From positions 1 to 49,897 of the forward strand of contig NCBJ01000007.1 in the NCBI GenBank assembly GCA_002255585.1: a stretch of DNA of 49,897 nucleotides, read 5' to 3'. Positions within the stretch are counted from its first letter, which is position 1. Every line of letters begins with the position of its first letter. This stretch comes from Parcubacteria group bacterium 21-54-25. GTDB taxonomy: Bacteria > Patescibacteriota > Minisyncoccia > Phycocordibacterales > Phycocordibacteraceae. Shown piece after piece: positions 907-18,673 of the stretch. A program made the translations under genes and the position numbers. The notes below the pieces were generated by a model that was given only the letters and a program-made list of their open reading frames with translations, was not told the DNA's origin and did no database searches.

Positions 907-1723
907 GAGAAGGCAACACCACCAAAGCTCTCCAGCACGAGAGCTCGGCATCTCGCTGCGCACTCTGTACTATCACCCACTCAAACCCGACAAAGACTGG
1001 CAGGTCAAGTGCCAGATCGAAGAAGTCCTCAGAGAGCATCCGTCATACGGCTCTCGGCGGCTTGCCATACACCTCACGATGAACCGCAAGAGGGTGAAGC
1101 GAGTGATGAGCCTGTTCGGCATCAAGGCATATCGCCGGAGAGGCAAGAAATGGCACAGAACAACGAATATCAAGGTGATGTATCCGAATCTCCTGATGAC
1201 GATGTGCCCCATGTATGAGAATCACATCTGGTGTGCCGACTTCACGTACATCCCGTTTCAAGGGAGATTCGTGTATGTCGCCACCGTCATCGACCTGTAT
1301 ACACGGAAGATTGTCGGAATGTCGGTATACACCACTCATGCCGTACAGCTCGTGCTCTCGGCATTCATGAACGCCCTGCACAGCCACCCTCGACCGTTCA
1401 TCTTCCACAGCGACAACGGCAGTGAATACAACGCTGAGATATATATCGAGGCATTAGAGACCGTCGGCACGATGATCTCTCGCTCAGCTCCCGGCTGTCC
1501 CTGGGAGAACGGCTACCAGGAGTCCTTCTACAATCAGTTCAAGATCGACTTCGGCGATCCGTCGAGATTCGCAACTCTCGGCGAGCTTGTTCTCGCCATC
1601 TATCAGACGATCTGGCAGTACAACCACGCGAGAATCCACTCCGCATTAAAAATGTCGCCTATGCAGTTTGCACTTCAGAGTGCCGCCGCATACAATTCAG
1701 GGAACAAGGATCGTGTGCAATGA
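857..1723 (+). CDS. IS3-family transposase OrfB (DDE/rve catalytic domain), probably made as an OrfAB fusion
   Basis: 'IWCADFTYIPFQGRFVYVATVIDLYTRKIVG ... FHSDNGSEY ... PWENGYQESFY ... YNHARIHSAL'. It overlaps orfA by 50 nt. Its frame is +1 relative to orfA. Confidence 0.85.
   Translation: MLARSRSSCLRPKKRSERRQHHQSSPARELGISLRTLYYHPLKPDKDWQVKCQIEEVLREHPSYGSRRLAIHLTMNRKRVKRVMSLFGIKAYRRRGKKWHRTTNIKVMYPNLLMTMCPMYENHIWCADFTYIPFQGRFVYVATVIDLYTRKIVGMSVYTTHAVQLVLSAFMNALHSHPRPFIFHSDNGSEYNAEIYIEALETVGTMISRSAPGCPWENGYQESFYNQFKIDFGDPSRFATLGELVLAIYQTIWQYNHARIHSALKMSPMQFALQSAAAYNSGNKDRVQ
894..900 (+). other. Slippery A-AAA-AAG heptamer (part of an A7G run) in the orfA/orfB overlap
   Basis: In the orfA frame the sequence reads caA AAA AAG. 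This is the classical IS3 frameshift motif, but see the finding on the frame relationship. Confidence 0.6.
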
Positions 1724-1819
1724 AAGGGGTCCAGTCCATAGCACAAAGATCCTGCAATACCAGTATGCAAAAAGGATGTCGCGTAACTCTTCCTGAATTC
1801 TATGTGCGACAAAGTCGGA

Positions 1820-2902
1820 TCACTGTATAACCTTCCCTTGTGAGTACAGATGATACCGGTCTTTCGCATCTGCCCCATTTGTCCCCTGTTGGGAATCGGC
1901 TGCGGTAATATGTATCGTGAAGCTGGCTGCGTCAGCTCCTGGTATAACGTTTTGGAGGTAATATACGTGATACCGATCTTTTGAGTAGCCATTCCACTCG
2001 TCGTTCGGACATCGAGCGCAACTGTCAGTATTATAGTAGAGAGGAGAGAAGGTCGTTTTGTCGACTCCACGCATCGGGTGTTGGTCAAAATAGACGGTGT
2101 TTTTATCTTCGGCGAAAAAATCTACTTCTCCTCCATTGATAGAATACGGAGGAAACGATGCCGAATATATAATGGAAAACGATGAGGGGTCTGCGCCCGT
2201 GATGACGGTGGTAGTTGCGAAATCGGTGGTGTACACGTGCGTACCGTCCTTTGCATAACTATCAGAACCTATTGAATCGGGAATCAAGGCAAATCGACGC
2301 GGATCGGCCCCTGGGATCACAATACCGTTCATGTACGCCGCACGGCTATCAGTTGCAAAGGCGGTGGCAAAGCCCATAGCGTCGAGAAGTACGGAGAAGG
2401 TTGCAGGGTCTGCATTGGGTACTTGATCCCCAAAGTAATAGGCATGCTTTCTATCAACCGCGTATCCGCTCGGTTCGCCGTCAGCCTTTTCGTAGATAAT
2501 CCTAAAAGAGCTCGGATCAGCACCGGGCAGTACGTTCGTCTGAAGGTATACATGTGCATTGTCGCTTTCGTACCACTTCGTGTGGTGTTGAGGAGAATAA
2601 TACAAGATCTTGAAGCTGCGAGGGTCAGCTCCAGGGATGGCGAAAGACCCGTCGTAAACCACACTTCCGGCTATATGAAATTGGCCGTCACTGGTTAGAT
2701 TACGGCTCTCGGGAGAGGAGGAAGCAATTACGGAGGTGCTGGTGGAAAGATTGGTCGGCGCCGGAAGAGTTGTATTCGGGACTGATGCCGCGTGATTCAC
2801 CAGGGGGTGCGTGGACGAATGCTGGAGCAACACCGCCACTCCTCCTACAACGAGCGCGAGCGCAACAGCAAGTGCAATGAGCCAACTTCTCTGGGCGAGC
2901 AT
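1820..2902 (-). CDS. DKNYY-repeat family protein with an N-terminal membrane anchor
   Basis: Repeated 'D.(K/R)..YY/VY' units (AKDRYHLY, SKDRYHVYY, EDKNTVYF, AKDGTHVYT, VDRKHAYYF, SDNAHVYL), each followed by 'PGADP..F'. The TM segment is 'WLIALAVALALVVGGVAVLL'. I prefer the ATG at 2902; the ORF remains open up to 3055. Confidence 0.7.
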   Translation of the reverse strand: MLAQRSWLIALAVALALVVGGVAVLLQHSSTHPLVNHAASVPNTTLPAPTNLSTSTSVIASSSPESRNLTSDGQFHIAGSVVYDGSFAIPGADPRSFKILYYSPQHHTKWYESDNAHVYLQTNVLPGADPSSFRIIYEKADGEPSGYAVDRKHAYYFGDQVPNADPATFSVLLDAMGFATAFATDSRAAYMNGIVIPGADPRRFALIPDSIGSDSYAKDGTHVYTTDFATTTVITGADPSSFSIIYSASFPPYSINGGEVDFFAEDKNTVYFDQHPMRGVDKTTFSPLYYNTDSCARCPNDEWNGYSKDRYHVYYLQNVIPGADAASFTIHITAADSQQGTNGADAKDRYHLYSQGKVIQ

Positions 2903-3097
2903 AGAATTTAGGGTTGACGTATACCAAGCGTACCATTTTCTGGGGTGTCGAACCAGAGAACGCAGCCCCAATCGATAGTGACGACCAGTCACGCACATAA
3001 ATAAAACGACAATCTCTTCAAGGCCCCACTGCGCGGGGCCTCTTCTTACTACCACCCCGTCTCGAGATGGTATAATATAGTCTATACGTATCTATCT

Positions 3098-3616
3098 ATG
3101 AGCTTTAGATTTAGGCCTAACCCAAGCGATTGGTTATTGTCGGATAAAATTCTGAACGAAGCAGATCGTGAAATAGTGGCGAACGCGAAAGTACACTCTG
3201 AGTTTGATGTTCCCTATGTTGCGGGCTACTCTGTCGATGGGGAAAGATTTTATATTGATCGGAATTTGCCAAAAAGTTTCCAACATGAGGGCCGACCTTT
3301 TGTAGTCAGAACTACTCTGATATTGCACGAAGTCGTTGAGAAAGCTCTCGAAAAAGAAGCCGCAGGTATTCCGTACCAACTAGCTCACCAAATCGCCCTT
3401 CGGGCAGAACGTGCCGCCGCGGAGGCAGCGAACATTTCATGGGATGTTTATAACAATTGGTTCGATACACAAATTAAGGAAATCGGCAGTCGTGATAGAT
3501 ATGACAACTGTCCGCCCGATCTCGATCTACAACCGTATCTTGATGAGCGTGACTGGTCTACGCTCGAGAAGATGTACGCGAACGGCAAGCCATTGTGGAA
3601 CGGGAAGAAATCCTAA
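3098..3616 (+). CDS. Hypothetical protein (172 aa)
   Basis: Clean ORF with no overlapping competitor. I recognise no motif. Confidence 0.55.
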   Translation: MSFRFRPNPSDWLLSDKILNEADREIVANAKVHSEFDVPYVAGYSVDGERFYIDRNLPKSFQHEGRPFVVRTTLILHEVVEKALEKEAAGIPYQLAHQIALRAERAAAEAANISWDVYNNWFDTQIKEIGSRDRYDNCPPDLDLQPYLDERDWSTLEKMYANGKPLWNGKKS

Positions 3617-3660
3617 GTAGTGCCGTTTAACATCGACCTTTCGTGCGCTATTATATACCC

Positions 3661-4632
3661 ATGCACAAACAGGCTGCCATACTATTTTTCACACTCGCCC
3701 TTTTGTTGCCATCGGTATCCTTTGCCGCGGCACCCTCCGCTCCGCAGACCAGCGTAATTGCCGCGCTACGCGCTACGTTGCACTCGCTACTAGCTGAATT
3801 AGCGAGTTTGCAACGGCAACTGGCTGCCTCGGTGGCGGCAAGTGCCTCTGATCCGCCCCCAGCGTCGCCAGCAGCACCGCCGCTCCACGCGCGGCCAACG
3901 GACAGTCTATATGTGACGGGAGGCCTTGGGTACGACATCTCTTTCAACACAAAAGCGTATCCATCCATTCCGTTTGATTTTGCAGTTATTGGGGTAAGTG
4001 GGGGGAAAGCATTCGTAGACAACGCGCGTCTTGCTTCTGAGTTTTCGTGGTCGCATTTTGCCTCCAGGGTGCGGCCGACTATATATATGAACATTAACGC
4101 GCCATATGGCAGTACCGTGGCGGGACACATCGGGAGTCCGCGCACCTGCCCGGGAGTCACCGACTCAAGTCAAGCTGTGGCCGCAGCAAATGGCGAACCC
4201 TCTGCGTGTGAGGGCTACAATTACGGCTACAACGCGGCAAAACATGCCTACGCATATGCACAAGCAAACAACGTGACCGCGCCGCTGTGGTGGCTCGATG
4301 TCGAAGAGGCCAACAGCTGGTCGGCAACCACGACGGTAAACGATGCGACGATACAAGGCGCGATTGATTACCTCAATGCGCAAGACGTGCGTGTGGGCAT
4401 TTATTCGGTGCCATACATGTGGCGCCAGATCGCCGGTACGGACTTTGCGCCGACGCAAACGCTCAATACGCGCGCCGAGTCAACTCCAACATGGTTTCCA
4501 ATCGGCATCACGCGCGAGGTGACGGCGCTCAACGCGTGTCTCACGTCAGACAGTTTCATTACCGGTAGCCCCGTTTGGATTATTCAATACGAATCGAGCT
4601 CGACCGCTGTCGATCAAAACATTTCCTGCTAA
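3661..4632 (+). CDS. Secreted protein with a coiled-coil/Pro-rich linker and a glycoside-hydrolase-like (GH25 / Rv2525c-like) C-terminal domain
   Basis: Signal peptide 'MHKQAAILFFTLALLLPSVSFAAA'. 'YDISFNTKAYPSIPFDFAVIGVSGG' and 'LWWLDVEEANSWS' resemble the lysozyme-like TIM-barrel family. The family assignment is from memory only. Confidence 0.5.
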   Translation: MHKQAAILFFTLALLLPSVSFAAAPSAPQTSVIAALRATLHSLLAELASLQRQLAASVAASASDPPPASPAAPPLHARPTDSLYVTGGLGYDISFNTKAYPSIPFDFAVIGVSGGKAFVDNARLASEFSWSHFASRVRPTIYMNINAPYGSTVAGHIGSPRTCPGVTDSSQAVAAANGEPSACEGYNYGYNAAKHAYAYAQANNVTAPLWWLDVEEANSWSATTTVNDATIQGAIDYLNAQDVRVGIYSVPYMWRQIAGTDFAPTQTLNTRAESTPTWFPIGITREVTALNACLTSDSFITGSPVWIIQYESSSTAVDQNISC

Positions 4633-4719
4633 AAATGGCGTGTGTCACACGCTTTTGACTCTATCAGCGGGGGTACTCCAGTCTGACGCAAGAATTGCAC
4701 AGTTTGCTATACTGTACGC

Positions 4720-4959
4720 ATGAGAACGCCCGATCTGGATAAAGAAAGAAGCGAAAAGAGACTTACCGCCAGCGAATTTCTCGCGGTGTATAACGAAGGT
4801 TTGCCGCCGACATTCCCACGCGCATCGCTTTTGCTCCTCGAGACGTATCAAAAACAGTACGCGAACCAATTCAAGGAGGGCGGCTGGTGGTCACTCGATC
4901 TGCACCGCAAGAAGGTTATGGACTGGTTGCCCGCGCACCTCAAACTTCTCGAAGCGTAG
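4720..4959 (+). CDS. Hypothetical small protein (79 aa)
   Basis: ORF only; no motif recognised. Confidence 0.35.
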   Translation: MRTPDLDKERSEKRLTASEFLAVYNEGLPPTFPRASLLLLETYQKQYANQFKEGGWWSLDLHRKKVMDWLPAHLKLLEA

Positions 4960-5087
4960 GTGGTGGACAATTAGTGCGCGTTGTGCTACTGTTCTAGCGT
5001 CAACCAGCGCTGAGCCAGAGAAGTAAGGCTCGAGCTTCTATTCCAGCCCACTGTCTTGATACTTTAATCACATTTCTCTCAATCGTT

Positions 5088-5288
5088 ATGCAAGAAGGAA
5101 CAATTGCGCGTCTTACCGACAGAGGATTCGGCTTCATCAAAGTCGAAGGCCAGGAGAAAGATCTCTTTTTCCACTCCAATGAGCTCGTCGGCATCTCGTT
5201 CGAAGAGCTTCGGGAAGGGGACAAGGTGACTTTCGAAATCGCCGAGAGCCCGAAAGGCCCGAACGCGGTCAAGGTAAGCAAAATCTAA
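5088..5288 (+). CDS. Cold-shock domain protein (CspA family)
   Basis: 66 aa. 'GTIARLTDRGFGFIKVEGQEKDLFFHSNEL' contains the RNP1/RNP2-like motifs. Confidence 0.9.
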   Translation: MQEGTIARLTDRGFGFIKVEGQEKDLFFHSNELVGISFEELREGDKVTFEIAESPKGPNAVKVSKI

Positions 5289-5331
5289 CGCGATGGGGAC
5301 GGTGTCGTCAGGAAGATTATGAGTCCTGTGC

Positions 5332-5382
5332 CACCCCCACGCAAAAACCGCGGCAATACGCCGCGGTTTTTGCGTGGGGGTG
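5332..5382. terminator. Very strong hairpin (perfect 22-bp stem), probably a bidirectional intrinsic terminator
   Basis: CACCCCCACGCAAAAACCGCGG-caatacg-CCGCGGTTTTTGCGTGGGGGTG, directly downstream of the csp gene. Confidence 0.8.
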
Positions 5383-5423
5383 ATAGACTAGACTTATATT
5401 CAAATTAGTAGTACAGTTTTCCC

Positions 5424-6509
5424 ATGAACATCCCTAATCGCCCAGAATACCTTAAAACCCAAGTGGAAGTCGAAAAACTTCGTACACTTCACTCGGAACT
5501 TGTCGAGGTCGATGCATTCGAGCGTCAGATTAAAGAACTCTTTTTTATAGATAACCACGCCTTTATTGGTATGCCGAAAGAGGAGGTCTATGCAACCACT
5601 GATTTTGAAAACTATGTGGCTACGAAGAAAGACGCATTTATTCATGTCTACTTCCCTTGGCTCAACACGATCGTGAGGACCGTCGATGCTGGCGACTACT
5701 ATCGGCTTAAAACTAATCGTAACCAGGATCTCATCACCGCAGCAGAGCAGAAAAAGTTGCATGATTACAAGGTCGCTGTACTTGGCATGAGTGTCGGTTC
5801 TAATATTGCCTTCGTGCTGGCACAAGCCGGCATCTCCAGCCGCATCATTCTCGCAGACTTCGACGAGCTTGATACGACGAACTTAAACCGCATTCTTGCG
5901 GGTGTCCACCAAGTCGGACTGAATAAGACGATCGTTGCCGCGCGCCACATCTACGAAGACGATCCATTCGCCGAGGTCACGCTCCTTCCTGAGGGCGTCA
6001 ACGAGGCGAATCTCGAGGAGCTTATCAAGGCGGGCGAGGTTGATTGTATTATCGAAGAGATCGATGATATTCCTTTCAAGATTCACGCGCGCCTGCTTGC
6101 GATGAAGTACAAAATCCCCGTTGTGATGGTAACTGACAACGGCGACGGCGTCGTACTGCATGTCGAGCGCTACGACCTTGGGCACGATAAGATCTGGGGT
6201 AAGCCACACGCGTATTATGAACAGAAGCTTGCGGACGGTCCAATGACGAAGGAGAAGGCGGGCAGCATCATCATGAACGATATCGTTGGCGGCGTGCACC
6301 GCGTCGATCCGAACATGATTAAGAGCGTCAAGCGCGTCCTCGCAAGAGAACTCGTTTCCTGGAGTCAACTCGGGTCGGCAGCTATCTTAGGCGCTGTCGT
6401 CGCAACCTATACAGTTAAAGAAATTGCGCTTGGTAAGGGTACAAAGCGAGACATCCGTGCGTGGATATCGCCGGAGAGCGTCGAGCACGGGAATCACACG
6501 GTATCCTAA
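5424..6509 (+). CDS. ThiF/MoeB/E1-like adenylyltransferase-family protein with an N-terminal extension of about 115 aa
   Basis: Rossmann/E1 motif 'KVAVLGMSVGSNIAFVLAQAGISSRIILADFDELDTTNLNRI'. The stop codon lies 2 nt before the next ATG. Confidence 0.75.
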   Translation: MNIPNRPEYLKTQVEVEKLRTLHSELVEVDAFERQIKELFFIDNHAFIGMPKEEVYATTDFENYVATKKDAFIHVYFPWLNTIVRTVDAGDYYRLKTNRNQDLITAAEQKKLHDYKVAVLGMSVGSNIAFVLAQAGISSRIILADFDELDTTNLNRILAGVHQVGLNKTIVAARHIYEDDPFAEVTLLPEGVNEANLEELIKAGEVDCIIEEIDDIPFKIHARLLAMKYKIPVVMVTDNGDGVVLHVERYDLGHDKIWGKPHAYYEQKLADGPMTKEKAGSIIMNDIVGGVHRVDPNMIKSVKRVLARELVSWSQLGSAAILGAVVATYTVKEIALGKGTKRDIRAWISPESVEHGNHTVS

Positions 6510-6511
6510 CT

Positions 6512-7609
6512 ATGTTAGGTCTCGACAGGGTGGCCGATATTACTCGGCTCGAACGTTTGAAGGAGTTTGATAATCACGAGCTTGTTTCGCTCGCATGTGA
6601 TGATTCCAATCATCTTACGGCTGTCATCGCGATCCACCGTGCTCATCCTGATGTCCCCTCGTTCGGCGCGACGCGTTTTTGGCACTACGCCTCGTCCATT
6701 GACGGAGTTAAAGACGCACTCCGTCTCTCGCGGCTCATGTCATACAAAGCGGCGCTTGCCGGACTGAATTGCGGCGGCGCGAAGGGGGTGATTATTTCGC
6801 GCGGAGATCCATATACCTTAAAAAAGGCTGTGCGCGATCGCTTACTGCGAGCATATGCTACACGCGTGAACCTGCTTGGTGGACGATTTGTCACGGGTAT
6901 AGATGTCGGTATTCGCCAAGAAGATCTCGGCACCATGTCTAATGCCTCGCGTCATATCGTTGGTTTTAACGGCAATTCAACAGAATTTACTGCGCTCGGT
7001 GTTTTTGAGAGCATACGAGCCGCACTACAGGAAGTATTTGGTGACGGCGATTTTTCTGGTCGCTCTGTTGCTATCCAGGGACTTGGTAAGGTCGGGAGCG
7101 GCGTGCTTGCGCTTTTATACGAACCAGTTGGTGCAACAGGGAAAATCTATGTTGCCGATATTGATCCGTCTCGCGTGGAAAGTACTTGCACTGCGTATCC
7201 ACGGGTTATTCCCGTCATGCCTGAAGAAATTGATGCGCAACAAGTTGACGTATTTGTTCCCTGCGCACTTTCAGGTGCCATCAATACAAAAAATGCAAAA
7301 CGTCTACAGGCGAAAATCGTAGCAGGAGGGGCTAATAATCAGCTTGAAAATGAAGCGGTCGGGGCAATACTTCACGAACGCAAGATCCTTTATGTACCTG
7401 ACTACGTCGCAAACGCAGGTGGACTCATTGCCGTCTTTGATGAATATAAGCACCCCTCCTACGACCGCGCACGGGTCGAGAAGGCGGTGTTGCACATCCC
7501 AGAAACACTACGAAAAATATTTGCCGAGAGCCGTGCAGAGAATACGACACCAAATAAAGTTGCGAACAGCATGGCTGAGCAGGTTTTTAATAATTACCAT
7601 GACTCCTGA
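6512..7609 (+). CDS. Glu/Leu/Phe/Val dehydrogenase family protein (leucine-dehydrogenase-like)
   Basis: Catalytic-Lys motif 'AGLNCGGAKGVI' and NAD-binding motif 'VAIQGLGKVGSG'. I prefer the ATG at 6512 over the upstream start in the ORF track, which overlaps the thiF-like gene. Confidence 0.8.
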   Translation: MLGLDRVADITRLERLKEFDNHELVSLACDDSNHLTAVIAIHRAHPDVPSFGATRFWHYASSIDGVKDALRLSRLMSYKAALAGLNCGGAKGVIISRGDPYTLKKAVRDRLLRAYATRVNLLGGRFVTGIDVGIRQEDLGTMSNASRHIVGFNGNSTEFTALGVFESIRAALQEVFGDGDFSGRSVAIQGLGKVGSGVLALLYEPVGATGKIYVADIDPSRVESTCTAYPRVIPVMPEEIDAQQVDVFVPCALSGAINTKNAKRLQAKIVAGGANNQLENEAVGAILHERKILYVPDYVANAGGLIAVFDEYKHPSYDRARVEKAVLHIPETLRKIFAESRAENTTPNKVANSMAEQVFNNYHDS

Positions 7610-9125
7610 TCATTACCCATTCCCTCCTCCGTTTGATAACGCGTCTGACGCCGAGGAAGCACTTAAGCACCGCGATCCGGCGGAATGGGAACGTCGTGGG
7701 GCCGCCGCCGCCCTCGATCTTTTCCGTAGAGCAAGCGAGCGTGTACCTGCGTACAAAGATTTTTTGAAAAAGCACTCGGTCAATCCAGATTCCATACGAA
7801 CTATTGCAGATTTCTCGCAACTTCCAACACTCGACAAGAACAATTACCTGCGCGCGTATCCGATCGATGCGCTCTCGTGGAACGGGGAGCTCATGGACGA
7901 ATACCAGGTATATGCCTCAACCTCCGGTTCTACGGGCGAGCCGTTCTATTTCCCGCGGACAAGGAAACAGACCGAGCAATACGCACTCCTCGCGGAGCTC
8001 TATCTGCGTTCGCAGTATAAGATTCAGGAGCGGAAAACGTTGTACGTAGATTGTTTTGCGATGGGCGCGTGGATTGGCGGCCTTTTTACTTATCAGGCGG
8101 TGGAGCGTCTTGCTGAGCGAGGGAAATATTCGCTCCACATTATTACGCCTGGTCTCGCTAAAGATGAGGCGCTGAAAGCCATCCGTAAACTCGGCCCACT
8201 GTACGACCAGGTCATTATCGGTGGATACCCTCCTTATGTTAAAGACCTGGTCGACCAGGGCACAGCCGACGGCTTAGATTGGGAAAAGTACAAAATCAAA
8301 TTCGTCTTCTCTGCCGAAGGATTTAGCGAAAAGTTTCGCGACTATGTCAGCGCGGCAGTCAGTCAAGAGAATACTCTGCGCGGATCACTCAATCACTACG
8401 GCACGGTCGACCAAGGGACACACGGGTACGAAACACCACTTGCAGCGCTGATTCGGCGCACCGCGCTAGACGACAAGCGATTTTTCAAGGAATTTTTTGG
8501 CCAGGCAAACCGTCTACCAACTCTCGCGCAATACATTCCAGAACAATTTTATTTTGAAAACGTACAAGGTGGGCTCATTTGTTCGGCAGACGCGGGGCTC
8601 CCCCTCGTGCGCTATGACCTTAAAGATCAGGGAGGTCTATGGAGTTTTAATGACGCGACAACAGCGATTGAGCGCGTAGTGCCAAACTATACACAGGTAC
8701 TCAAGGACAGGGGTATCGACGATACTGTTTTTAAACTTCCATTCGTATATCTCTACGAGCGTGCTGACTTTGTTGTTGTTCTTTATGGTGCGAATATTTA
8801 CCCAGAACACATTCGGCGTGCGCTCGAAGGGAAAACGTGCGCCACATTTGCTACTGGAAAATGTGCGATACGCATCATTGAAAATCGTATACGCGAGCCA
8901 CGGCTCGAAGTGAACATAGAGCTCAAACGTGGTGTCACCCCAGCTGCTGCAGACGCAAAAACCGCAGAAAAAGAAATCATAAAGACCCTGCTCGCTAATA
9001 ATTCAGAATATTGTTCAAATTACACGCGCCTATCACACAGAATGAAACCGCGCGTCAAGCTCTGGCTTTTTGGCGATCCGAAAAATTTCTCCGGTCGCGG
9101 TAAGCAGAAGTGGATAGTTAAATAA
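7599..9125 (+). CDS. PaaK/CapK-type (phenylacetate-CoA-ligase-like) adenylate-forming enzyme
   Basis: 'VYASTSGSTGEPFYFPRT' adenylation loop. The ATG at 7599 overlaps the dehydrogenase stop by 11 nt. The ORF-track start at 7344 lies inside the upstream gene. Confidence 0.7.
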   Translation: MTPDHYPFPPPFDNASDAEEALKHRDPAEWERRGAAAALDLFRRASERVPAYKDFLKKHSVNPDSIRTIADFSQLPTLDKNNYLRAYPIDALSWNGELMDEYQVYASTSGSTGEPFYFPRTRKQTEQYALLAELYLRSQYKIQERKTLYVDCFAMGAWIGGLFTYQAVERLAERGKYSLHIITPGLAKDEALKAIRKLGPLYDQVIIGGYPPYVKDLVDQGTADGLDWEKYKIKFVFSAEGFSEKFRDYVSAAVSQENTLRGSLNHYGTVDQGTHGYETPLAALIRRTALDDKRFFKEFFGQANRLPTLAQYIPEQFYFENVQGGLICSADAGLPLVRYDLKDQGGLWSFNDATTAIERVVPNYTQVLKDRGIDDTVFKLPFVYLYERADFVVVLYGANIYPEHIRRALEGKTCATFATGKCAIRIIENRIREPRLEVNIELKRGVTPAAADAKTAEKEIIKTLLANNSEYCSNYTRLSHRMKPRVKLWLFGDPKNFSGRGKQKWIVK

Positions 9126-9142
9126 ACACACAATCGCTCGTT

Positions 9143-9237
9143 CTTGAGTTCAACAAGTAATTGCACCACTCCGCTAAAATAGCGGGATATGGCACACAAG
9201 CAGTTGAGCGTGGAAGAGCGTGAGGAAATACAGCAAG
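9143..9237 (+). mobile_element. Truncated IS30-like element: terminal IR plus the first 16 codons of the transposase
   Basis: These 95 nt are identical, read by eye, to the reverse complement of 44952-45046 in the intact copy. The fragment encodes MAHKQLSVEEREEIQQ. Confidence 0.85.
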
Positions 9238-9267
9238 TATCGTGTGCAATGAAAGAGGTCCAATCCA
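9238..9267 (+). mobile_element. Solo right end (IRR) of the IS3-like element, fused to the IS30 fragment
   Basis: GTGTGCAATGAAAGAGGTCCAATCCA matches IRR 1713-1738 (GTGTGCAATGAAAGGGGTCCAGTCCA) at 24 of 26 positions. Confidence 0.7.
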
Positions 9268-9317
9268 CAACGATAGTTGTTATCATGGAGATTATACTTC
9301 CGAAAATGTCACGGGTG

Positions 9318-9323
9318 TATAAT
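9318..9323 (+). promoter_or_regulatory. Candidate -10 box (TATAAT) upstream of the nitroreductase gene
   Basis: A perfect TATAAT preceded by TG, 18 nt upstream of the ATG at 9342. No good -35 is present. Confidence 0.3.
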
Positions 9324-9341
9324 CTATTCATTATTTATCCC

Positions 9342-10406
9342 ATGTCTATTTCGCGCGAGGTTTTACTTGAAATACTGCGAGATGCTTGCCGAGCACCGTC
9401 GGGAGACAATACGCAGCCATGGCGCTTTTTGGTGAAAAGAAATATTATTTATGTAATCAATACACCGGAGAAAGACACATCACTTTTTAATTGGCAACAA
9501 CGGACGAATTATATTGCTCTCGGTGCTTGCATTGAAAATTTGTGTGTGTCCGCCCTAGGCAAGCGGTTGCGCGCAAAAGTGGCACTCTTTCCAGAACACG
9601 CGGATCGTTTGATAGTAGCAGCGGTTACATTAACGCCTGAACGCTCGATGGGCAGCGGCCTTGTACCATACCTCGCGAAGCGTGCGAGCAACCGTAAAAA
9701 GTATTTGGAGAAAGAAGTCGAACCAGAGAAACTCTCCACGCTCGCGTCTTGTGTACATGATGATAAGAGTCGTCTCACTTTCATAACTGAACGGCCAAGT
9801 CTGGAAAGAGTTGCGCGTATCGTATCGGTGGGAGAGAGGCTTGCTCTCGAGAACAAATCAATACACGATTTCCTTTTCGCGCACATAACATGGAGCAAAG
9901 AAGAAGATTCCAAGAAGCACGGTTTTTTCATAGATACTTTTGAATTTGCACCGCCACAGAGAGTAGCTTTTCGGCTCTTCCGGCACTGGAATATTCTGAA
10001 ACTGTTTCTTTCGCTTGGTGTGTCGAAGGCGATCGTGAAAGATATAGAGAAAGTTCACGCAACCGCGGCAGCTTTTGGGGCTATTATCATTTCGAATGAA
10101 ACTCCGGAGGCGTTTCTTCAGGCTGGCATGGTACTCGAACGTCTTTGGCTCACCGCGACGAAGGCAGGGCTTTCGCTCCAACCAACAACGACTGTGCATT
10201 TTCTTGGCGCGCGTGTTTCTGCAGGTGATTCCGGAGGACTTTCTAGTGAACACCAGTCACTTCTGAAACAGAACTACGTCGCGCTTTCCCGTGAGTTTGG
10301 ATTGAATAGCTCGGAACGGTTCGGCTTTGTATTTCGTCTCGGTTACGCAGATCCGCCAAGCGCTATGACCACACGCTTTGAGCCGAAGGTATTATTCGAA
10401 GAGTAA
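9342..10406 (+). CDS. Two-lobed nitroreductase-fold FMN oxidoreductase (Acg-family-like)
   Basis: 'LRDACRAPSGDNTQPWRF', 'LGACIENL', 'RASNRKKY' and a second lobe 'GMVLERLWLTATKAGLSLQPTT' parallel the Acg/Rv2032 layout as I remember it. The ORF-track start at 9189 is an IS chimera. Confidence 0.75.
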   Translation: MSISREVLLEILRDACRAPSGDNTQPWRFLVKRNIIYVINTPEKDTSLFNWQQRTNYIALGACIENLCVSALGKRLRAKVALFPEHADRLIVAAVTLTPERSMGSGLVPYLAKRASNRKKYLEKEVEPEKLSTLASCVHDDKSRLTFITERPSLERVARIVSVGERLALENKSIHDFLFAHITWSKEEDSKKHGFFIDTFEFAPPQRVAFRLFRHWNILKLFLSLGVSKAIVKDIEKVHATAAAFGAIIISNETPEAFLQAGMVLERLWLTATKAGLSLQPTTTVHFLGARVSAGDSGGLSSEHQSLLKQNYVALSREFGLNSSERFGFVFRLGYADPPSAMTTRFEPKVLFEE

Positions 10407-10443
10407 AATATTTATCGGAGTGTTCTTCGGTTAGAATGGAGAA

Positions 10444-12057
10444 ATGGGAGCATTGACCAATCTCGATCTCTTTATTGTTGGTGTCGTAGTTGCCGCGACG
10501 CTGGTTCTTGGAGCGTCGGTTTATTTCAGCGATCGACAGAGCATCTCAAATAAGATGTTCCTCGGCTTTTCGTTGGTAACTGCGTCCTGGGGAGTAATTA
10601 ATTATCTCAGCTATCAATTTTCAAACCCGACGCTTACTATCTGGCTCTTACGCGGGATTTTATTTTTTGCGGTGTTTCAATCCCTGTTCTTGTATGAATT
10701 TTTTTCCGCGTTTCCCAGCAAAACCCGTACGTTTAGCTCACGCCATAAGTTTTTGTTACTTCCGTTGGTTGGTGTAGCAGCGCTTCTCACTCTTACCCCA
10801 TATGTTTTTATTGGAATAATTGGCACCGTTGAGCCTGGACAAGTCGCGGTTGTCCAGAAAGGCCCTGGGCTCATAATTTTTGCCATTATAGCAATTGGCT
10901 TGGTATCTCGAGCCTTATATATGCTGCTTCAGGCGTTTAGAGATTCGCGTGGCTCTGCTCGTCGCGCAATCGCAATAATTTTTTCTGGTACAGCGATAAC
11001 TTTTGTTCTTATTATTACGTTTAATTTCGTTATAGCCACTATTTTTACTAATCCGCGCTTCGTGCCCTTAGGGGCGCTCTTTGTTTTCCCGTTCGTAGCA
11101 TTTACTTCGTACGCTATCCTGCGCGAACATCTTTTCAATATAAAGGTCGCGACAACGGCTTCGCTTGTCTTTCTTCTTTCGGTTGCCTCTTTCGGAGAAA
11201 TAATCTTTTCAGACACTCTTCCACTCGTACTGTTTCGCACGAGCGTCTTCGTGCTCGTGCTTGTCTTCGGTATTAATCTTATTCGCGGCGTTCTGCGCGA
11301 GGTGGAACAACGCGAAAAAATCGAAAAACTTGCGAAAGAACTAGAAGAGACAAATCACCGGCAAGAAACGCTCATTCACTTCATTGGGCATGAGGTGAAA
11401 AGTTTCTTGACAAAGGATGTCGGCGCACTCTCTGTGCTCGCCGAAGGCGATTTTGGCGCTTTGTCGACGACGGGAGAGTCTTTTGTAGAAGATGCTTTGG
11501 CGCAAGCGCGCGAAGGCGTGCGCTCGGTGACGAGTATCCTGCAAGCAGCAAACCTCAAAAGAGGCACGGTTGCCTATCATAGGGCACCATTTGATCTCAT
11601 GACGGTTGTCAAGACGAGTTTCGCTGCGGCTCAAGGAGCTGCGAAAGAGAAGGGGCTTGTCTTTACACTTTCTATCGATCAGCGTGTCGAACCCTATACC
11701 ATCACAGGTGACGCAGACCAGCTCCGCGAGCACGTATTTCGTAACCTCATCGAAAATGCTATTGCATACACCCTCAAAGGAAGTGTTGCTGTTGCGCTTG
11801 GAAAAAATGATGCGGGCGCGATTGTTTTTGCGGTTAAAGATACCGGCGTGGGCATCACCGATGAAGACAAGCGGCGGCTTTTTACTGAGGGCGGGCATGG
11901 CAAGGATTCGCTCAAGGTAAATGCCCATTCTACTGGTTATGGCCTGTACATTGCAAAACAAATTGTCGATGCGCATGGTGGCACCGTTCGTGCCGAGAGC
12001 GAGGGGGCGGGGAAGGGCTCGACGTTTGTGGTGACACTGCCGTCATCGCGAGTGTGA
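10444..12057 (+). CDS. Sensor histidine kinase with a polytopic (about 7-8 TM) N-terminal domain
   Basis: HisKA 'FIGHEVKSFL' and HATPase_c 'DTGVGI...GYGLYIAKQIVDAHGG'. No response regulator gene lies nearby. Confidence 0.85.
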   Translation: MGALTNLDLFIVGVVVAATLVLGASVYFSDRQSISNKMFLGFSLVTASWGVINYLSYQFSNPTLTIWLLRGILFFAVFQSLFLYEFFSAFPSKTRTFSSRHKFLLLPLVGVAALLTLTPYVFIGIIGTVEPGQVAVVQKGPGLIIFAIIAIGLVSRALYMLLQAFRDSRGSARRAIAIIFSGTAITFVLIITFNFVIATIFTNPRFVPLGALFVFPFVAFTSYAILREHLFNIKVATTASLVFLLSVASFGEIIFSDTLPLVLFRTSVFVLVLVFGINLIRGVLREVEQREKIEKLAKELEETNHRQETLIHFIGHEVKSFLTKDVGALSVLAEGDFGALSTTGESFVEDALAQAREGVRSVTSILQAANLKRGTVAYHRAPFDLMTVVKTSFAAAQGAAKEKGLVFTLSIDQRVEPYTITGDADQLREHVFRNLIENAIAYTLKGSVAVALGKNDAGAIVFAVKDTGVGITDEDKRRLFTEGGHGKDSLKVNAHSTGYGLYIAKQIVDAHGGTVRAESEGAGKGSTFVVTLPSSRV

Positions 12058-12116
12058 CAGGCGTGCTTAGGGGCGCCGTTGAATGAGCACGCCGTTCGTA
12101 GTATCGTCTTGGTATT

Positions 12117-12193
12117 GCCGGTGTAGCTCAGGCAGTTAGAGCATGGGACTCATAAACCCAAGGTCGCAGGTGCAAGTCCTGCCGCCGGCACCA
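12117..12193 (+). tRNA. tRNA-Met (CAU), CCA encoded (a tRNA-Ile2 lysidine type cannot be excluded)
   Basis: The cloverleaf folds by hand. Acceptor GCCGGTG/CGCCGGC, anticodon loop CTCATAA, T-loop TGCAAGT (unusual G at position 55). Confidence 0.88.
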
Positions 12194-12248
12194 GTTTGAA
12201 AAAAAGCAGCATCTCGAGTACTCTAAGTCGGTCGCGCAAGCGGCTTCT

Positions 12249-12322
12249 GCGGTCGTAGCTCAACTGGTTAGAGCATCCGCCTGTCACGCGGAAGGTTGAG
12301 GGTTCAAGTCCCTTCGACCGCG
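12249..12322 (+). tRNA. tRNA-Asp (GUC)
   Basis: Acceptor GCGGTCG/CGACCGC, anticodon loop CTGTCAC, T-loop TTCAAGT. Confidence 0.9.
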
Positions 12323-12481
12323 CAGTAAGAAATATACAGTTCGTTTGGGCGAGTAAAATGAGAGGTTGAACTAAAATAGCTACGGTCGTGTGCTATGATG
12401 CGAAAATAAGATGTATAATCCGCACAGTTTTCACGAGCACAGCAAGGAAAAAAACGTAGTCCGCGCGGCGTTATTGATGCG

Positions 12482-18603: not shown

Positions 18604-18673
18604 CTGGGAGTATAGAAAAAGAGGGAAATGTCATACGGGACGTTCTGCGCAGGAGGCGTATACTTTCCCTTGG

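What the first reader, a model, noticed from the sequence alone, without database searches (positions are those of the whole stretch)
5424..10406. Operon of an E1-like (ThiF) enzyme, an amino-acid dehydrogenase and a PaaK-type adenylating enzyme, followed by an Acg-type nitroreductase: candidate uncharacterised activation-and-redox cassette
Seen in the sequence:
- The thiF-like stop (6507-6509) lies 2 nt before the dehydrogenase ATG (6512).
- The dehydrogenase stop (7607-7609) overlaps the ligase ATG (7599) by 11 nt, so the three genes are almost certainly one translationally coupled operon.
- The nitroreductase (ATG 9342) follows after a gap of about 215 bp. That gap is largely occupied by an IS30/IS3 scar, so the nitroreductase was plausibly the fourth operon gene before IS damage.
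- Motifs: 'VAVLGMSVGSNIAFVLAQAG...LADFDELDTTNLNR' (E1/ThiF Rossmann fold), preceded by an N-terminal region of about 115 aa that I cannot assign; 'LNCGGAKGVI' and 'IQGLGKVGSG' (Glu/Leu/Phe/Val dehydrogenase); 'STSGSTGEPFYFP' (PaaK/CapK-type adenylation loop); and 'CRAPSGDNTQPWRF' plus a second lobe (Acg-like nitroreductase).

Established knowledge:
- E1-like enzymes adenylate carboxylates, either ThiS/MoaD C-termini or peptide substrates in the microcin C and TOMM pathways.
- Nitroreductase-fold flavoenzymes act as dehydrogenases in azoline pathways.
- I recall ThiF-nitroreductase fusion proteins in actinobacteria (the Rv1355c/MoeY architecture). I could not verify this here.

Inference: no ThiS/MoaD-like carrier, YcaO or obvious precursor peptide lies nearby. 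Two independent adenylating enzymes, an NAD-dependent amino-acid/2-oxo-acid interconversion and a flavoenzyme do not add up to a pathway I know. The cassette is unexpected in an otherwise minimal-looking genome.
Basis: partly seen in the sequence, partly recalled or inferred. Interest (0 to 1): 0.72.

Follow-up and report, generated by a model that had tools for sequence, protein, structure and literature searches.

The report
Patescibacterial oxazolone-type operon with sensor kinase
The four genes are real and belong together: they look like a previously undescribed version of the recently discovered bacterial "oxazolone" small-molecule pathway, conserved across the ultra-small Patescibacteria and nearly always followed by a membrane sensor kinase, which hints that the product could be a signal.

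Summary
Observation confirmed. All four ORFs, both gene junctions (2-nt gap; 11-nt overlap), the quoted motifs and the IS30/IS3 scar between ligase and nitroreductase are in the sequence.

The ThiF-like protein and the Acg-type nitroreductase are the two halves of a split Rv1355c-family protein. This is the characterised oxazolone synthetase (OxzB; TyzB+TyzC; TrzS = Rv1355c). It cyclises N-acyl aromatic amino acids with ATP and desaturates them with FMN/O2.

What is new is the front end and the context:
- No N-acyl-amino-acid synthase is present. An ELFV dehydrogenase with a PheDH/TrpDH-like pocket and a divergent PaaK-fold adenylating ligase take its place.
- In 48 flank-complete Patescibacteria species loci the ligase has ThiF next to it in 48, a 7TM histidine kinase in 43, the nitroreductase in 39 and the dehydrogenase in 33.
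- Where the dehydrogenase is missing, a class I aminotransferase replaces it (41 vs 18 loci, never both).
- Fused proteins exist: DH-ligase, ligase-ThiF, ThiF-ligase, DH-ligase-ThiF and ThiF-nitroreductase.

Best reading: a CoA-independent route, amino acid/2-oxo acid, then N-acyl amino acid, then unsaturated oxazolone, co-inherited with a two-component sensor. This is a new variant of a known kind. The substrates and the kinase's ligand are inferred, not shown.

The parts
5331..5382 (+). Long perfect hairpin with an internal T-run after the cold-shock gene (5088-5288). It probably terminates that gene and marks the upstream boundary of the operon.
   Evidence: Sequence read. The consensus scanner did not list it, so this boundary was judged by eye.
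5424..6509 (+). Gene A: ThiF/E1-like ATP-dependent cyclase, the N-terminal half of a split Rv1355c-type oxazolone synthetase (361 aa).
   Evidence: Family placement:
- Pfam ThiF 78 bits.
- NCBIfam Rv1355c family 212 bits over model positions 28-325, against 69 bits or less for ThiF, MoeB and TcdA.
- The alignment with a Rhodococcus Rv1355c-family protein shares the N-terminal domain, the G[LM]SVGS loop, LADFDxLDxxNLNR and EExD.

Conservation and structure:
- D214, R156, N153/N155 and K219 are invariant in 79 homologues.
- The model has pLDDT 89.9 and an E1 fold.
6512..7609 (+). Gene B: NAD(P)-dependent amino-acid dehydrogenase of the Leu/Phe/Trp branch (365 aa).
   Evidence: - Both ELFV Pfam domains are found.
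- The best solved relatives are Trp dehydrogenase 5B37 (222 bits) and Leu dehydrogenase 3VPX (219 bits).
- The catalytic residues K79, K91 and D131 are invariant.
- The pocket has G129 (invariant) and L305 (39/50), the PheDH-type G/L pair.
7599..9125 (+). Gene C: divergent PaaK-fold adenylate-forming ligase (508 aa).
   Evidence: - No Pfam hit. TIGR02155 scores 54 bits against a cut-off of 646.
- A profile search of PDB finds only PaaK (E 1e-10).
- Foldseek top matches are PaaK1, BT_0428, HCL and ClxA.
- All adenylation core motifs are invariant, including K502.
9143..9267 (+). Composite IS scar in the C-D intergenic region. An IS30 left end plus 16 codons (9143-9237) is joined to an IS3 3' end fragment (9234-9267).
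   Evidence: blastn of the gap against the window, sequences and Pfam on the intact copies. There is no such gap in relative L001.
9342..10406 (+). Gene D: Acg-type two-lobed nitroreductase-fold flavin-dependent oxidase, the C-terminal half of the split oxazolone synthetase (354 aa).
   Evidence: - NCBIfam Rv1355c family 193 bits over positions 373-712. PRK14851 187 bits. Acg family 146 bits.
- It is collinear with the C-terminal halves of fused proteins.
- APS, N23, QPW, R114 and G262 are invariant.
10444..12057 (+). Gene E: HisKA_7TM sensor histidine kinase (537 aa), the conserved last gene of the module.
   Evidence: - Pfam HisKA_7TM plus HATPase_c.
- H316 and the N, G1 and G2 boxes are invariant in 41 cluster-linked kinases.
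- It is present next to the cluster in 43/48 ligase-seeded and 30/34 ThiF-seeded Patescibacteria loci, and in 0/8 non-Patescibacteria loci.

Best explanation
The region is a five-gene operon from a Patescibacteria (Paceibacteria-like) genome. It encodes a lineage-specific version of the oxazolone (azlactone) pathway plus a sensor kinase.

Proposed order of action, which follows the order of domains in natural fusion proteins (B-C-A, A-D):
1. B interconverts a bulky or aromatic amino acid and its 2-oxo acid. In other genomes a class I aminotransferase does this instead.
2. C adenylates a carboxylic acid and joins it to the amino group of an amino acid without CoA, giving an N-acyl amino acid. 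I favour the 2-oxo acid made by B, or its decarboxylated arylacetate, as the acid. [quoted passage not shown]
3. A adenylates the carboxylate of that N-acyl amino acid, and the amide oxygen closes the 5(4H)-oxazolone ring.
4. D, with FMN, desaturates C-alpha-C-beta to give the conjugated oxazolone or N-acyl dehydroamino acid.
5. E, a 7TM histidine kinase co-inherited with the enzymes, either senses the product or a related lipophilic cue, or controls the operon.

Shown here:
- the family assignments
- intact catalytic motifs
- synteny
- fusions
- the dehydrogenase/aminotransferase displacement

Inferred:
- the substrates
- amide formation by C
- the direction of step 1
- the role of the kinase
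For: A plus D is a split oxazolone synthetase:
- A matches the N-terminal half and D the C-terminal half of the Rv1355c family model. Scores are 212 and 193 bits, far above any other ThiF or nitroreductase family.
- A and D are collinear with a Rhodococcus Rv1355c-family protein and with 8 Patescibacteria ThiF-nitroreductase fused ORFs.
- Rv1355c is TrzS, an ATP-dependent cyclase plus O2-dependent desaturase of N-acyl-Trp (PMC12856293). Split TyzB/TyzC (PMC10404671) and fused OxzB (bioRxiv 10.1101/2020.06.11.147165) do the same on Tyr and Phe.
- The Asp equivalent to the TrzS D217 / ThiF adenylation motif is invariant here as D214.

One pathway:
- Ligase-seeded scan of one genome per species, 48 loci with enough flank: ThiF 48, kinase 43, nitroreductase 39, dehydrogenase 33.
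- ThiF-seeded scan, 34 Patescibacteria loci: ligase in 27, kinase in 30.
- Fusion proteins: ligase-ThiF (P0268, L036), ThiF-ligase (P0381), DH-ligase (P0279) and DH-ligase-ThiF (P0349).

The amino acid / 2-oxo acid step is required:
- The dehydrogenase is present in 41 loci. A class I/II aminotransferase is present instead in 18 loci. Both are present in none and neither in 5.

Aromatic or bulky substrate:
- B has the Gly/Leu pocket pair of Phe/Trp dehydrogenases and GATR as in Trp dehydrogenase 5B37.
- This fits the aromatic amino acids of all known oxazolones.

C as the acylating enzyme:
- C has a PaaK fold with complete adenylation motifs.
- No acyltransferase lies in or next to the cluster in the window or among conserved neighbours.
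- PaaK-like enzymes that make amides or esters without CoA are known: NatL2 (PMC7204872) and ClxA (PMC9400959, PMC12519233). ClxA appears among the structural matches.
- In 6 Saccharibacteria loci the same RR...ThiF-kinase frame carries, instead of the ligase and the DH/aminotransferase, a 275-aa protein family. That family also sits next to ThiF in Actinomycetes, Nocardioides and Acidobacteria. This is the position the acyltransferase occupies in described clusters.
Against: - No chemistry was tested.
- C could be a true CoA ligase.
- The 275-aa family could not be shown to be an acyltransferase. It has no Pfam, NCBIfam or PDB match.
- Neither A nor D reaches the Rv1355c equivalog cut-off (476 bits), even when summed.
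- A is only about 30% and D about 18% identical to the Rhodococcus Rv1355c-family protein. A different N-acyl or carbamoyl substrate is therefore possible.
- D is absent from about a fifth of loci and B/T from a few.
- The described desaturases need O2, whereas many Patescibacteria live in anoxic habitats.
- Some fusion proteins come from metagenome gene calls and could be assembly or frameshift artefacts.
- No response regulator lies in this window. Kinase adjacency does not say what the kinase senses.
Confidence: 0.6

Rival explanations
1. The core is the same (A+D is an oxazolone synthetase), but C is an ordinary acyl-CoA ligase. It only feeds an acyl-CoA to an N-acyl amino acid synthase encoded elsewhere in the genome. 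B merely supplies the amino acid.
For: - C has the PaaK (CoA ligase) fold, and its nearest solved relatives are CoA ligases.
- All characterised oxazolone pathways use acyl-CoA plus an acyltransferase (PMC10404671, PMC12856293).
Against: - No acyltransferase is conserved near any of the roughly 130 loci.
- The ligase and the candidate acyltransferase-position family Y are mutually exclusive.
- Ligase-ThiF and DH-ligase-ThiF fusions imply direct hand-over.
- From general knowledge, not tested here: Patescibacteria usually lack CoA and fatty-acid metabolism.
Confidence: 0.12
2. The module is a salvage or degradation system for aromatic amino acids or exogenous N-acyl amino acids. The kinase senses the substrate. 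No dedicated end product is made.
For: - Amino-acid dehydrogenases and PaaK-type ligases are classically catabolic.
- The kinase could be a nutrient sensor.
- An alpha/beta hydrolase joins the cluster in 15 loci.
Against: - The ThiF/flavin-oxidase pair has only biosynthetic precedents.
- No downstream catabolic genes (paaABCDE, thiolases and the like) are conserved nearby.
- C scores 54 bits against the 646-bit cut-off of the PaaK equivalog.
Confidence: 0.12
3. The E1-like enzyme acts on a macromolecule: a peptide (RiPP, TOMM or microcin C-like), a protein C-terminus or a tRNA (ct6A-like). The flavoenzyme acts as an azoline-type dehydrogenase.
For: - Foldseek and sequence hits to MccB, PaaA, AclA and TcdA.
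- A has an extra N-terminal domain, as MccB and PaaA do.
Against: - The Rv1355c-family score (212 bits) dwarfs TcdA (46), MoeB and ThiF.
- There is no YcaO and no ThiS/MoaD.
- Intergenic gaps inside the operon are 2, -11 and 37 nt plus an IS scar. That leaves no room for a precursor gene.
- No small conserved neighbour was found, although ORFs under 70 aa were not screened across loci.
Confidence: 0.07
4. Four unrelated housekeeping genes lie side by side by chance: thiamin/molybdopterin ThiF, leucine dehydrogenase, phenylacetate ligase and a detoxifying nitroreductase.
For: Generic database names such as 'molybdopterin/thiamine biosynthesis adenylyltransferase' and 'phenylacetate-CoA ligase'.
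Against: - Synteny across at least five Patescibacteria lineages.
- Overlapping or near-abutting junctions between successive genes.
- Multiple fusions.
- Every housekeeping equivalog cut-off is missed by a wide margin.
Confidence: 0.02

Closest known systems
TrzAS (Rv1356c/Rv1355c) of Mycobacterium tuberculosis, M. smegmatis and Rhodococcus: N-acyl tryptazolone synthesis (PMC12856293)
   Same: - The ThiF-like cyclase and the Acg-like flavin oxidase give the best family match for both A and D.
- They share the N-terminal extension, the nucleotide loop G[LM]SVGS, the NLNR motif, the catalytic Asp and the RAPSxxNxQPW motif.
   Different: - Here the two halves are separate genes with two other genes between them.
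- There is no TrzA-type acyltransferase. A PaaK-like ligase plus a dehydrogenase stand in its place.
- A histidine kinase follows, rather than c-di-GMP genes.
- To the Rhodococcus Rv1355c-family protein, A is about 30% and D about 18% identical.
TyzACB (Rv2336-2338c) of M. tuberculosis: N-acyl tyrazolone synthesis (PMC10404671)
   Same: The architecture is split, with a separate ThiF-like cyclase (TyzB) and a separate flavin oxidase (TyzC) acting on an N-acyl aromatic amino acid.
   Different: TyzA (FeeM / AHL-synthase fold, acyl-CoA dependent) makes the N-acyl amino acid. No ligase, dehydrogenase or kinase is linked.
OxzAB of Pseudoalteromonas rubra and other Proteobacteria: the first oxazolone synthetase (bioRxiv 10.1101/2020.06.11.147165)
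   Same: - The ThiF-nitroreductase pairing.
- A small-molecule substrate.
- A proposed stress or signal role for the product.
   Different: The di-domain is fused and preceded by the N-acyltransferase OxzA. The acyl groups come from the fatty acyl-CoA pool.
PaaK phenylacetate-CoA ligase, and the PaaK-like CoA-independent ligases NatL2 and ClxA of benzoxazole pathways (PMC7204872, PMC9400959, PMC12519233)
   Same: The fold and the adenylation motifs of C. NatL2 and ClxA show that this fold can form ester or amide bonds directly from the acyl-adenylate.
   Different: - C is about 80 aa longer.
- It shares only 16-17% identity with the solved structures.
- It scores far below the PaaK cut-off.
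- It has no paa or benzoxazole gene context.
ScyB tryptophan dehydrogenase of scytonemin biosynthesis and NpTrpDH (PDB 5B37); Leu and Phe dehydrogenases
   Same: B is a full-length member of this branch, with the catalytic residues and an aromatic-type pocket. ScyB is a precedent for such an enzyme feeding an arylpyruvate into secondary metabolism.
   Different: B scores 269 bits against the 600-bit cut-off of the ScyB equivalog. There is no ScyA-type partner. Substrate unknown.
TcdA (CsdL): tRNA t6A to cyclic t6A dehydratase
   Same: It is the closest solved sequence relative of A. It also closes an oxazolone ring by ATP-dependent activation of a carboxylate (PMC12596934).
   Different: It acts on tRNA, lacks the N-terminal domain and a flavin partner, and matches A only weakly (35-46 bits).

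Membership tests
Oxazolone synthetase system (OxzB / TyzB+TyzC / TrzS = Rv1355c family) | ThiF/E1-like cyclase module with the family's N-terminal extension and intact ATP-binding / adenylation residues | tested here: met
   - Rv1355c model positions 28-325, 212 bits.
- Shared motifs with the Rhodococcus Rv1355c-family protein.
- D214, R156, N153, N155 and K219 are invariant.
- E1 fold at pLDDT 89.9.
Oxazolone synthetase system (OxzB / TyzB+TyzC / TrzS = Rv1355c family) | Acg-like two-lobed nitroreductase-fold flavin oxidase, fused or adjacent to the cyclase | tested here: met
   - D matches Rv1355c model positions 373-712 at 193 bits.
- D lies in the same operon.
- It is fused to ThiF in 8 related loci.
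- It is present in 39/48 loci.
Oxazolone synthetase system (OxzB / TyzB+TyzC / TrzS = Rv1355c family) | Adjacent N-acyl amino acid synthase (OxzA/TyzA/TrzA, FeeM/AHL-synthase fold) that supplies the substrate | tested here: not met
   No such gene is in the window cluster or among the conserved neighbours of 79 loci. A PaaK-like ligase plus a DH or aminotransferase occupy that role.
Oxazolone synthetase system (OxzB / TyzB+TyzC / TrzS = Rv1355c family) | Score above the curated NCBIfam equivalog cut-off (NF005901, 476 bits) | tested here: not met
   A scores 212 bits and D 193 bits, 405 in total. The pair is a relative, not an equivalog.
Oxazolone synthetase system (OxzB / TyzB+TyzC / TrzS = Rv1355c family) | ATP-dependent cyclisation and O2/FMN-dependent desaturation of an N-acyl aromatic amino acid | not testable with these tools
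   This needs enzyme assays or heterologous expression.
PaaK phenylacetate-CoA ligase | Equivalog-level sequence match and paa catabolic gene context | tested here: not met
   TIGR02155 scores 54 bits against a cut-off of 646. No paa genes are nearby.
PaaK-fold adenylate-forming enzymes (ANL superfamily, short form) | PaaK fold, P-loop, and the A5/A7/A8 motifs and A10 lysine | tested here: met
   - Foldseek to 2Y27 with E 4e-23 and TM 0.56-0.66.
- Invariant TSGSTGxP, YGTxD, RYDLKDxGG, ERxD and K502.
ELFV amino-acid dehydrogenases, Leu/Phe/Val/Trp branch | Both ELFV domains, the catalytic Lys/Lys/Asp and the nucleotide-binding GxGxxG | tested here: met
   Pfam scores are above gathering thresholds. 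K79, K91 and D131 are invariant. 222 bits to 5B37.
ScyB tryptophan dehydrogenase (equivalog) | Score above the NF035922 cut-off (600 bits) and a scytonemin gene context | tested here: not met
   269 bits. No scy genes.
ThiF/MoeB sulfur-carrier-activating E1 | ThiS/MoaD-type partner ending in Gly-Gly, and an equivalog-level score | tested here: not met
   No such ORF is nearby. ThiF and MoeB models score 34-69 bits against cut-offs of 152-633.
TOMM / microcin C-type peptide maturation | Precursor peptide gene and, for TOMM, a YcaO cyclodehydratase | tested here: not met
   No YcaO. There is no intergenic room for a precursor gene inside the operon.
Two-component sensor histidine kinase (HisKA_7TM class) | 7TM N-terminal region, phospho-acceptor His and a HATPase_c domain with N/G1/G2 boxes | tested here: met
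   Pfam PF16927 and PF02518. H316, N434/N438, DxGxG and GxG are invariant.
Two-component sensor histidine kinase (HisKA_7TM class) | Cognate response regulator | tested here: inconclusive
   None in the 50-kb window. Stand-alone receiver proteins flank the cluster in 39 of 79 related loci.

The most novel reading that the evidence does not exclude
Patescibacteria make an oxazolone-type (or N-acyl dehydroamino acid) molecule entirely from amino-acid-derived building blocks by a CoA-independent route. The co-encoded 7TM histidine kinase is its receptor. This would be a self-contained chemical signalling circuit (autoinducer-like, or used in the episymbiont-host dialogue). It would be the first dedicated small-molecule signal system in this radiation and the first receptor assigned to oxazolones, whose physiological role is still an open question in mycobacteria and proteobacteria.
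Probability: 0.25. Interest if true: 0.85.

Novelty: new variant of a known kind. Interest (0 to 1): 0.62.

Why it matters
- Oxazolone biosynthesis was discovered only in 2020-2021. Its physiological role is still unknown, and authors have speculated about signalling (PMC12856293; bioRxiv 10.1101/2020.06.11.147165).
- In the library I searched, no paper mentions oxazolones and Patescibacteria together.
- Patescibacteria are regarded as metabolically minimal. A conserved four-enzyme small-molecule module is therefore notable. The ligase family has about 520 clusters at 50% identity, and the module is found in Paceibacteria, Saccharimonadia, Microgenomatia, Magasanikbacteria and Doudnabacteria.
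- The module offers three things:
  1. A candidate CoA-independent N-acyl-amino-acid-forming ligase, which is of biocatalytic interest.
  2. Natural DH-ligase-cyclase fusion proteins that could be expressed directly to identify the product.
  3. A tightly linked sensor kinase, which makes the 'oxazolones are signals' hypothesis testable.
- It also corrects routine annotation. These genes are currently named 'molybdopterin/thiamine biosynthesis adenylyltransferase' and 'phenylacetate-CoA ligase'.

Tried and rejected
- Promoter/terminator consensus scan of 5000-12400. Counts were no higher than in shuffles, so it gave no operon evidence. The boundary rests on a hairpin seen by eye.
- A response regulator in the window: none found.
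- The 275-aa 'Y' family that replaces the ligase in some Saccharibacteria:
  - Pfam gave nothing, even at E 10. NCBIfam, a PDB profile search and a 5.8-billion-protein search returned only unnamed hypotheticals.
  - hhalign against the hypothetical protein next to a Rhodococcus Rv1355c gene gave no similarity.
  - Its identity as an acyltransferase therefore stays a guess, based on position and my reading of its motifs. Structure prediction was no longer available.
- Sequence search of D against PDB gave only a weak Acg hit (E 2e-4). I could not map TrzS R540/Q651 because no M. smegmatis sequence was at hand.
- Foldseek on the ThiF model did not assign the N-terminal domain to a known fold.
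- PDB and NCBIfam searches of the kinase recognised only its cytoplasmic kinase core and gave no clue to the ligand of the 7TM part.
- I considered and dropped ThiS/MoaD activation, TOMM/microcin C maturation, tRNA ct6A formation and plain phenylacetate or leucine catabolism. The reasons are in the rival explanations and membership tests.
- I recalled that almazolone might carry an arylacetyl-type substituent, which would fit a PaaK-like donor. The paper at hand does not give that detail, so I make no use of it.

Full report
**1. What is in the sequence**

The ORF list shows four same-strand genes at the stated coordinates:
- A, 5424-6509, 361 aa
- C, 7599-9125, 508 aa
- D, 9342-10406, 354 aa

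I read the junctions base by base.
- The stop of A (TAA, 6507-6509) is followed after 2 nt by the ATG of B.
- The ATG of C (7599) lies 11 nt inside the end of B (TGA, 7607-7609).

Upstream, a cold-shock gene (5088-5288, Pfam CSD) is followed by a long perfect hairpin at 5331-5382. The cluster therefore begins as its own unit. The consensus promoter/terminator scan was uninformative.

The rest of the window is housekeeping: IF-2, ClpB, MiaA, ParB, RelA/SpoT, topoisomerase I, SerRS, DnaX and tRNAs. The nearest relatives of the proteins come from Minisyncoccota/Paceibacterota, Kaiserbacteria and Parcubacteria metagenome-assembled genomes (MAGs). The organism is a member of the Patescibacteria, probably Paceibacteria.

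**2. The IS scar**

The 216-bp C-D spacer is unusual. In the closest long relative (L001, a 544-kb contig) D starts 4 nt after C.
- blastn of the spacer against the window shows that 9143-9237 is 100% identical to 45046-44952.
- That stretch is the left end plus the first 16 codons (MAHKQLSVEEREEIQQ) of an intact IS30-family transposase gene (44014-45000, minus strand; HTH_38; sequence).
- 9234-9267 is 91% identical to the 3' end of an IS3-family rve ORF (857-1723).

The scar is purely intergenic. The C-terminus of C (GKQKW) and the N-terminus of D are intact.

**3. Family assignments**

Pfam:
- ThiF in A, residues 101-235
- both ELFV domains in B
- nothing in C
- Nitroreductase in D
- HisKA_7TM plus HATPase_c in E

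NCBIfam is decisive for A and D.
- A matches positions 28-325 of the 722-position 'Rv1355c family' model at 212 bits. ThiF, MoeB and TcdA models score 69 bits or less.
- D matches positions 373-712 of the same model at 193 bits.
- The two genes are therefore the halves of a split Rv1355c-type protein.

An alignment with a Rhodococcus plasmid 'Rv1355c family protein' and three Patescibacteria fused proteins shows collinearity and these shared elements:
- the N-terminal extension (W-x-Y-F-P-W ... R-N-x-x-I-T-x-E-E-Q)
- the unusual nucleotide loop G-[LM]-S-V-G-S
- LADFDxLDxxNLNR
- EExD
- RAPSxxNxQPW in the flavin half

In the AlphaFold model (pLDDT 89.9) it is a confident alpha/beta domain in front of an E1 fold.

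Across about 80 homologues these residues are invariant:
- the ATP-binding and catalytic residues of A: G121, S123, G125, N153, N155, R156, D214, K219
- the flavin-site motifs of D

**4. What that pair does, from the literature**

- ThiF-nitroreductase di-domain proteins were shown to be oxazolone synthetases. OxzB converts N-acyl-Tyr or N-acyl-Phe, made by the acyltransferase OxzA, into tyrazolones and phenazolones, and needs ATP (bioRxiv 10.1101/2020.06.11.147165).
- In M. tuberculosis the split pair TyzB (ThiF-like) and TyzC (flavin-dependent oxidase of the nitroreductase superfamily, Acg-like) does the same downstream of TyzA (PMC10404671).
- Rv1355c itself is TrzS. Together with TrzA (Rv1356c) it makes N-acyl tryptazolones. 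A conserved ThiF-motif Asp (D217) is needed for cyclisation (PMC12856293).
- A 2025 review calls this the only ThiF-like enzyme known to act on a small molecule (PMC12596934).

**5. What is different here**

[quoted passage not shown] The window has none. B and C sit between A and D.

B:
- It is a full-length Leu/Phe/Trp-branch dehydrogenase. The best solved relatives are Trp dehydrogenase 5B37 (222 bits) and Leu dehydrogenase 3VPX (219 bits).
- Its catalytic residues are invariant.
- It has Gly at the LeuDH A113 position (47 of 47 aligned homologues) and Leu at the V291 position (39/50). To my knowledge this is the pair that distinguishes Phe dehydrogenase from Leu dehydrogenase. It also has GATR as in Trp dehydrogenase.
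- This points to a bulky or aromatic side chain, in line with the aromatic amino acids of every known oxazolone.

C:
- It is a very divergent PaaK-fold enzyme.
- It has no Pfam hit and scores 54 bits against the 646-bit PaaK cut-off. Only PaaK appears in a PDB profile search.
- Its model has pLDDT 86.6. The Foldseek top matches are PaaK1, BT_0428, 2-hydroxyisobutyryl-CoA ligase and ClxA.
- All adenylation motifs, including the terminal Lys (K502), are invariant.

**6. Is the linkage real?**

I seeded a scan of one genome per GTDB species with the ligase and classified neighbours with iterated HMMs.

Of 48 loci with enough flank:

| Neighbour | Loci |
|---|---|
| ThiF-like gene | 48 |
| 7TM kinase | 43 |
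| nitroreductase | 39 (6 on the opposite strand) |
| dehydrogenase | 33 |

- Two main gene orders exist. One is A-B-C-D-E, the window type (Paceibacteria, Woesebacteria). The other is (D)-B-C-A-(D)-E (Saccharimonadia, Magasanikbacteria, Doudnabacteria, Roizman- and Gottesmanbacteria).
- ThiF and nitroreductase form a single ORF in 8 loci. Ligase and ThiF form a single ORF in L036.
- The reverse scan seeded with ThiF gave 34 flank-complete Patescibacteria loci. The ligase is present in 27 and the kinase in 30.
- Of 8 non-Patescibacteria loci (Actinomycetes, Nocardioides, Hoyosella, Acidobacteria and others), none has the ligase or the kinase.
- An exhaustive HMMER search of 1.84 billion representatives found 520 clusters at E ≤ 1e-30. 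Four of them are multi-domain proteins (Pfam):
  - P0268, ligase-ThiF
  - P0381, ThiF-ligase
  - P0279, dehydrogenase-ligase
  - P0349, dehydrogenase-ligase-ThiF (1242 aa)
- Together with the ThiF-nitroreductase fusions, fusions link the dehydrogenase to the ligase, the ligase to ThiF and ThiF to the nitroreductase. The recurrent order is B-C-A-D.

**7. Non-orthologous displacement**

I clustered all other ORFs in the loci. A class I/II aminotransferase (Aminotran_1_2, E 1e-63) lies upstream in 18 loci.

Cross-tabulation for loci with at least 2.5 kb upstream:

| Content | Loci |
|---|---|
| dehydrogenase only | 41 |
| aminotransferase only | 18 |
| neither | 5 |
| both | 0 |

Two unrelated enzymes share one activity, amino acid / 2-oxo acid interconversion, and they alternate. 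That step therefore belongs to the pathway.

Further accessory genes:
- stand-alone receiver proteins in 39 of 79 loci
- an alpha/beta hydrolase between ThiF and the kinase in 15 loci

**8. A third architecture**

Six flank-complete Saccharibacteria-type loci keep the frame RR-RR ... ThiF-kinase but lack the ligase, the dehydrogenase/aminotransferase and the nitroreductase (two shorter loci show the same arrangement). Directly upstream of ThiF they carry a 275-aa protein ('Y'), sometimes with an ABC exporter.
- The same family sits next to ThiF-like genes in Actinomycetes, Nocardioides and Acidobacteria.
- Y and the ligase never co-occur.
- This is where published clusters have their acyltransferase. 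TyzA is likewise an unannotated 'hypothetical' recognisable only by fold (PMC10404671).
- I could not demonstrate that Y has that fold.
- If Y is the acyltransferase, then DH/aminotransferase plus ligase is its functional replacement. Y-type loci need no DH or aminotransferase. The DH/aminotransferase would then serve the ligase, most simply by making its carboxylate substrate.

**9. Proposed mechanism**

Shown here:
- the identities
- intact active sites
- linkage, fusions and displacement

Established by others: A-type enzymes adenylate the carboxylate of an N-acyl amino acid and close the oxazolone ring. D-type enzymes desaturate C-alpha-C-beta with FMN/O2.

Inferred:
- C forms the N-acyl amino acid directly from an acyl-adenylate, without CoA.
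  - There is precedent in the PaaK-like NatL2 and ClxA (PMC7204872, PMC9400959, PMC12519233).
  - From general knowledge, it fits organisms that usually lack acyl-CoA pools.
- B, or the aminotransferase, most likely works in the deaminating direction to give the (aryl) 2-oxo acid that C activates.
  - ScyB is a precedent for this family feeding an arylpyruvate into secondary metabolism.
  - The B-C fusion would capture a thermodynamically unfavoured, labile product.
- I give this donor assignment about even odds against the alternative that B supplies the amino-acid acceptor.
- The kinase has all catalytic boxes and a conserved multi-pass membrane region. It is linked to the module only in Patescibacteria. 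It may sense the lipophilic product or regulate the operon. Nothing here decides between these.

**10. Caveats**

- No biochemistry was done.
- The A and D scores are below the equivalog cut-off.
- A and D are only about 30% and 18% identical to the actinobacterial (Rhodococcus) Rv1355c-family protein.
- D is missing in about a fifth of loci.
- The known desaturases need O2.
- Some fusion proteins could be gene-calling artefacts.
- ORFs under 70 aa were not screened across loci.
- The literature check is limited to the held library.

**11. Verdict**

The core chemistry is known (oxazolone synthetase). Three things appear undescribed:
- the CoA-independent front end (dehydrogenase or aminotransferase plus PaaK-like ligase)
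- the wide distribution in Patescibacteria
- the tight link to a 7TM histidine kinase

This is a new variant of a known kind, of moderate to high interest.

Noticed in passing
window 44014-45046 (minus strand), 9143-9237 and 16128-16183: An intact IS30-family element has a transposase gene at 44014-45000 and a left end reaching about 45046. Its left-end sequence recurs as the 95-bp scar at 9143-9237. It recurs again between the Nramp and IF-2 genes as four tandem 11-bp copies of CTTGAGTTCAA followed by CAAGTAATTGCA.
   Followed up: partly
window 857-1723: An IS3-family (rve integrase core) ORF. A 34-bp copy of its 3' end (91% identical) forms the second half of the scar in the ligase-nitroreductase spacer.
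   Followed up: partly
L087 10786-14125, L088 10751-14359 (also L022): Close relatives carry a roughly 3.7-kb insertion at the same ligase-nitroreductase junction. It includes two tandem genes that look like TrmB-type HTH regulators and other ORFs. This junction seems to be a recurrent insertion site.
   Followed up: no
L129, L130, L131, L132, L135, L138, L140, L142 (e.g. L135 5913-10202): In a Saccharibacteria-type variant, an unannotated 275-aa protein family (no Pfam, NCBIfam or PDB match) sits directly upstream of the ThiF-like gene and the 7TM kinase. There is no ligase, dehydrogenase or nitroreductase. Two receiver genes lie upstream, and in some loci an ABC transporter. The same family neighbours ThiF-like genes in Actinomycetes, Nocardioides and Acidobacteria (L134, L136, L137, L139).
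   Followed up: partly
15 related loci, e.g. L025 10532-11410 and L053 7975-8862: An alpha/beta-fold hydrolase (Abhydrolase_1, about 295 aa) is inserted between the ThiF gene and the kinase, mainly in Magasanikbacteria-type loci. It could open or trim the oxazolone or an ester.
   Followed up: partly
L083 10698-12917, L135 8019-10202 and similar: In Saccharimonadia the cluster-linked kinase is longer (about 730-750 aa). It has a GAF domain and a recognisable HisKA domain between the 7TM region and the ATPase.
   Followed up: partly
L085 (Rhodococcus qingshengii plasmid) 1808-5956: The actinobacterial Rv1355c-family gene lies beside a GGDEF-domain gene and a divergent 252-aa hypothetical. This echoes the c-di-GMP neighbourhood noted for trzAS in M. 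tuberculosis.
   Followed up: no
window 18663-19011: ARAGORN reports a permuted tmRNA (tag AAKYCA**) that overlaps a tRNA-Leu gene (18674-18758) and runs into the next ORF. It is probably a false call.
   Followed up: no
window 1820-3055 (minus strand), 3098-3616, 3643-4632: A DKNYY-family repeat protein and two proteins without any Pfam match lie just upstream of the cluster region. One of the two has a signal-peptide-like N-terminus. None is conserved next to the cluster in relatives.
   Followed up: no
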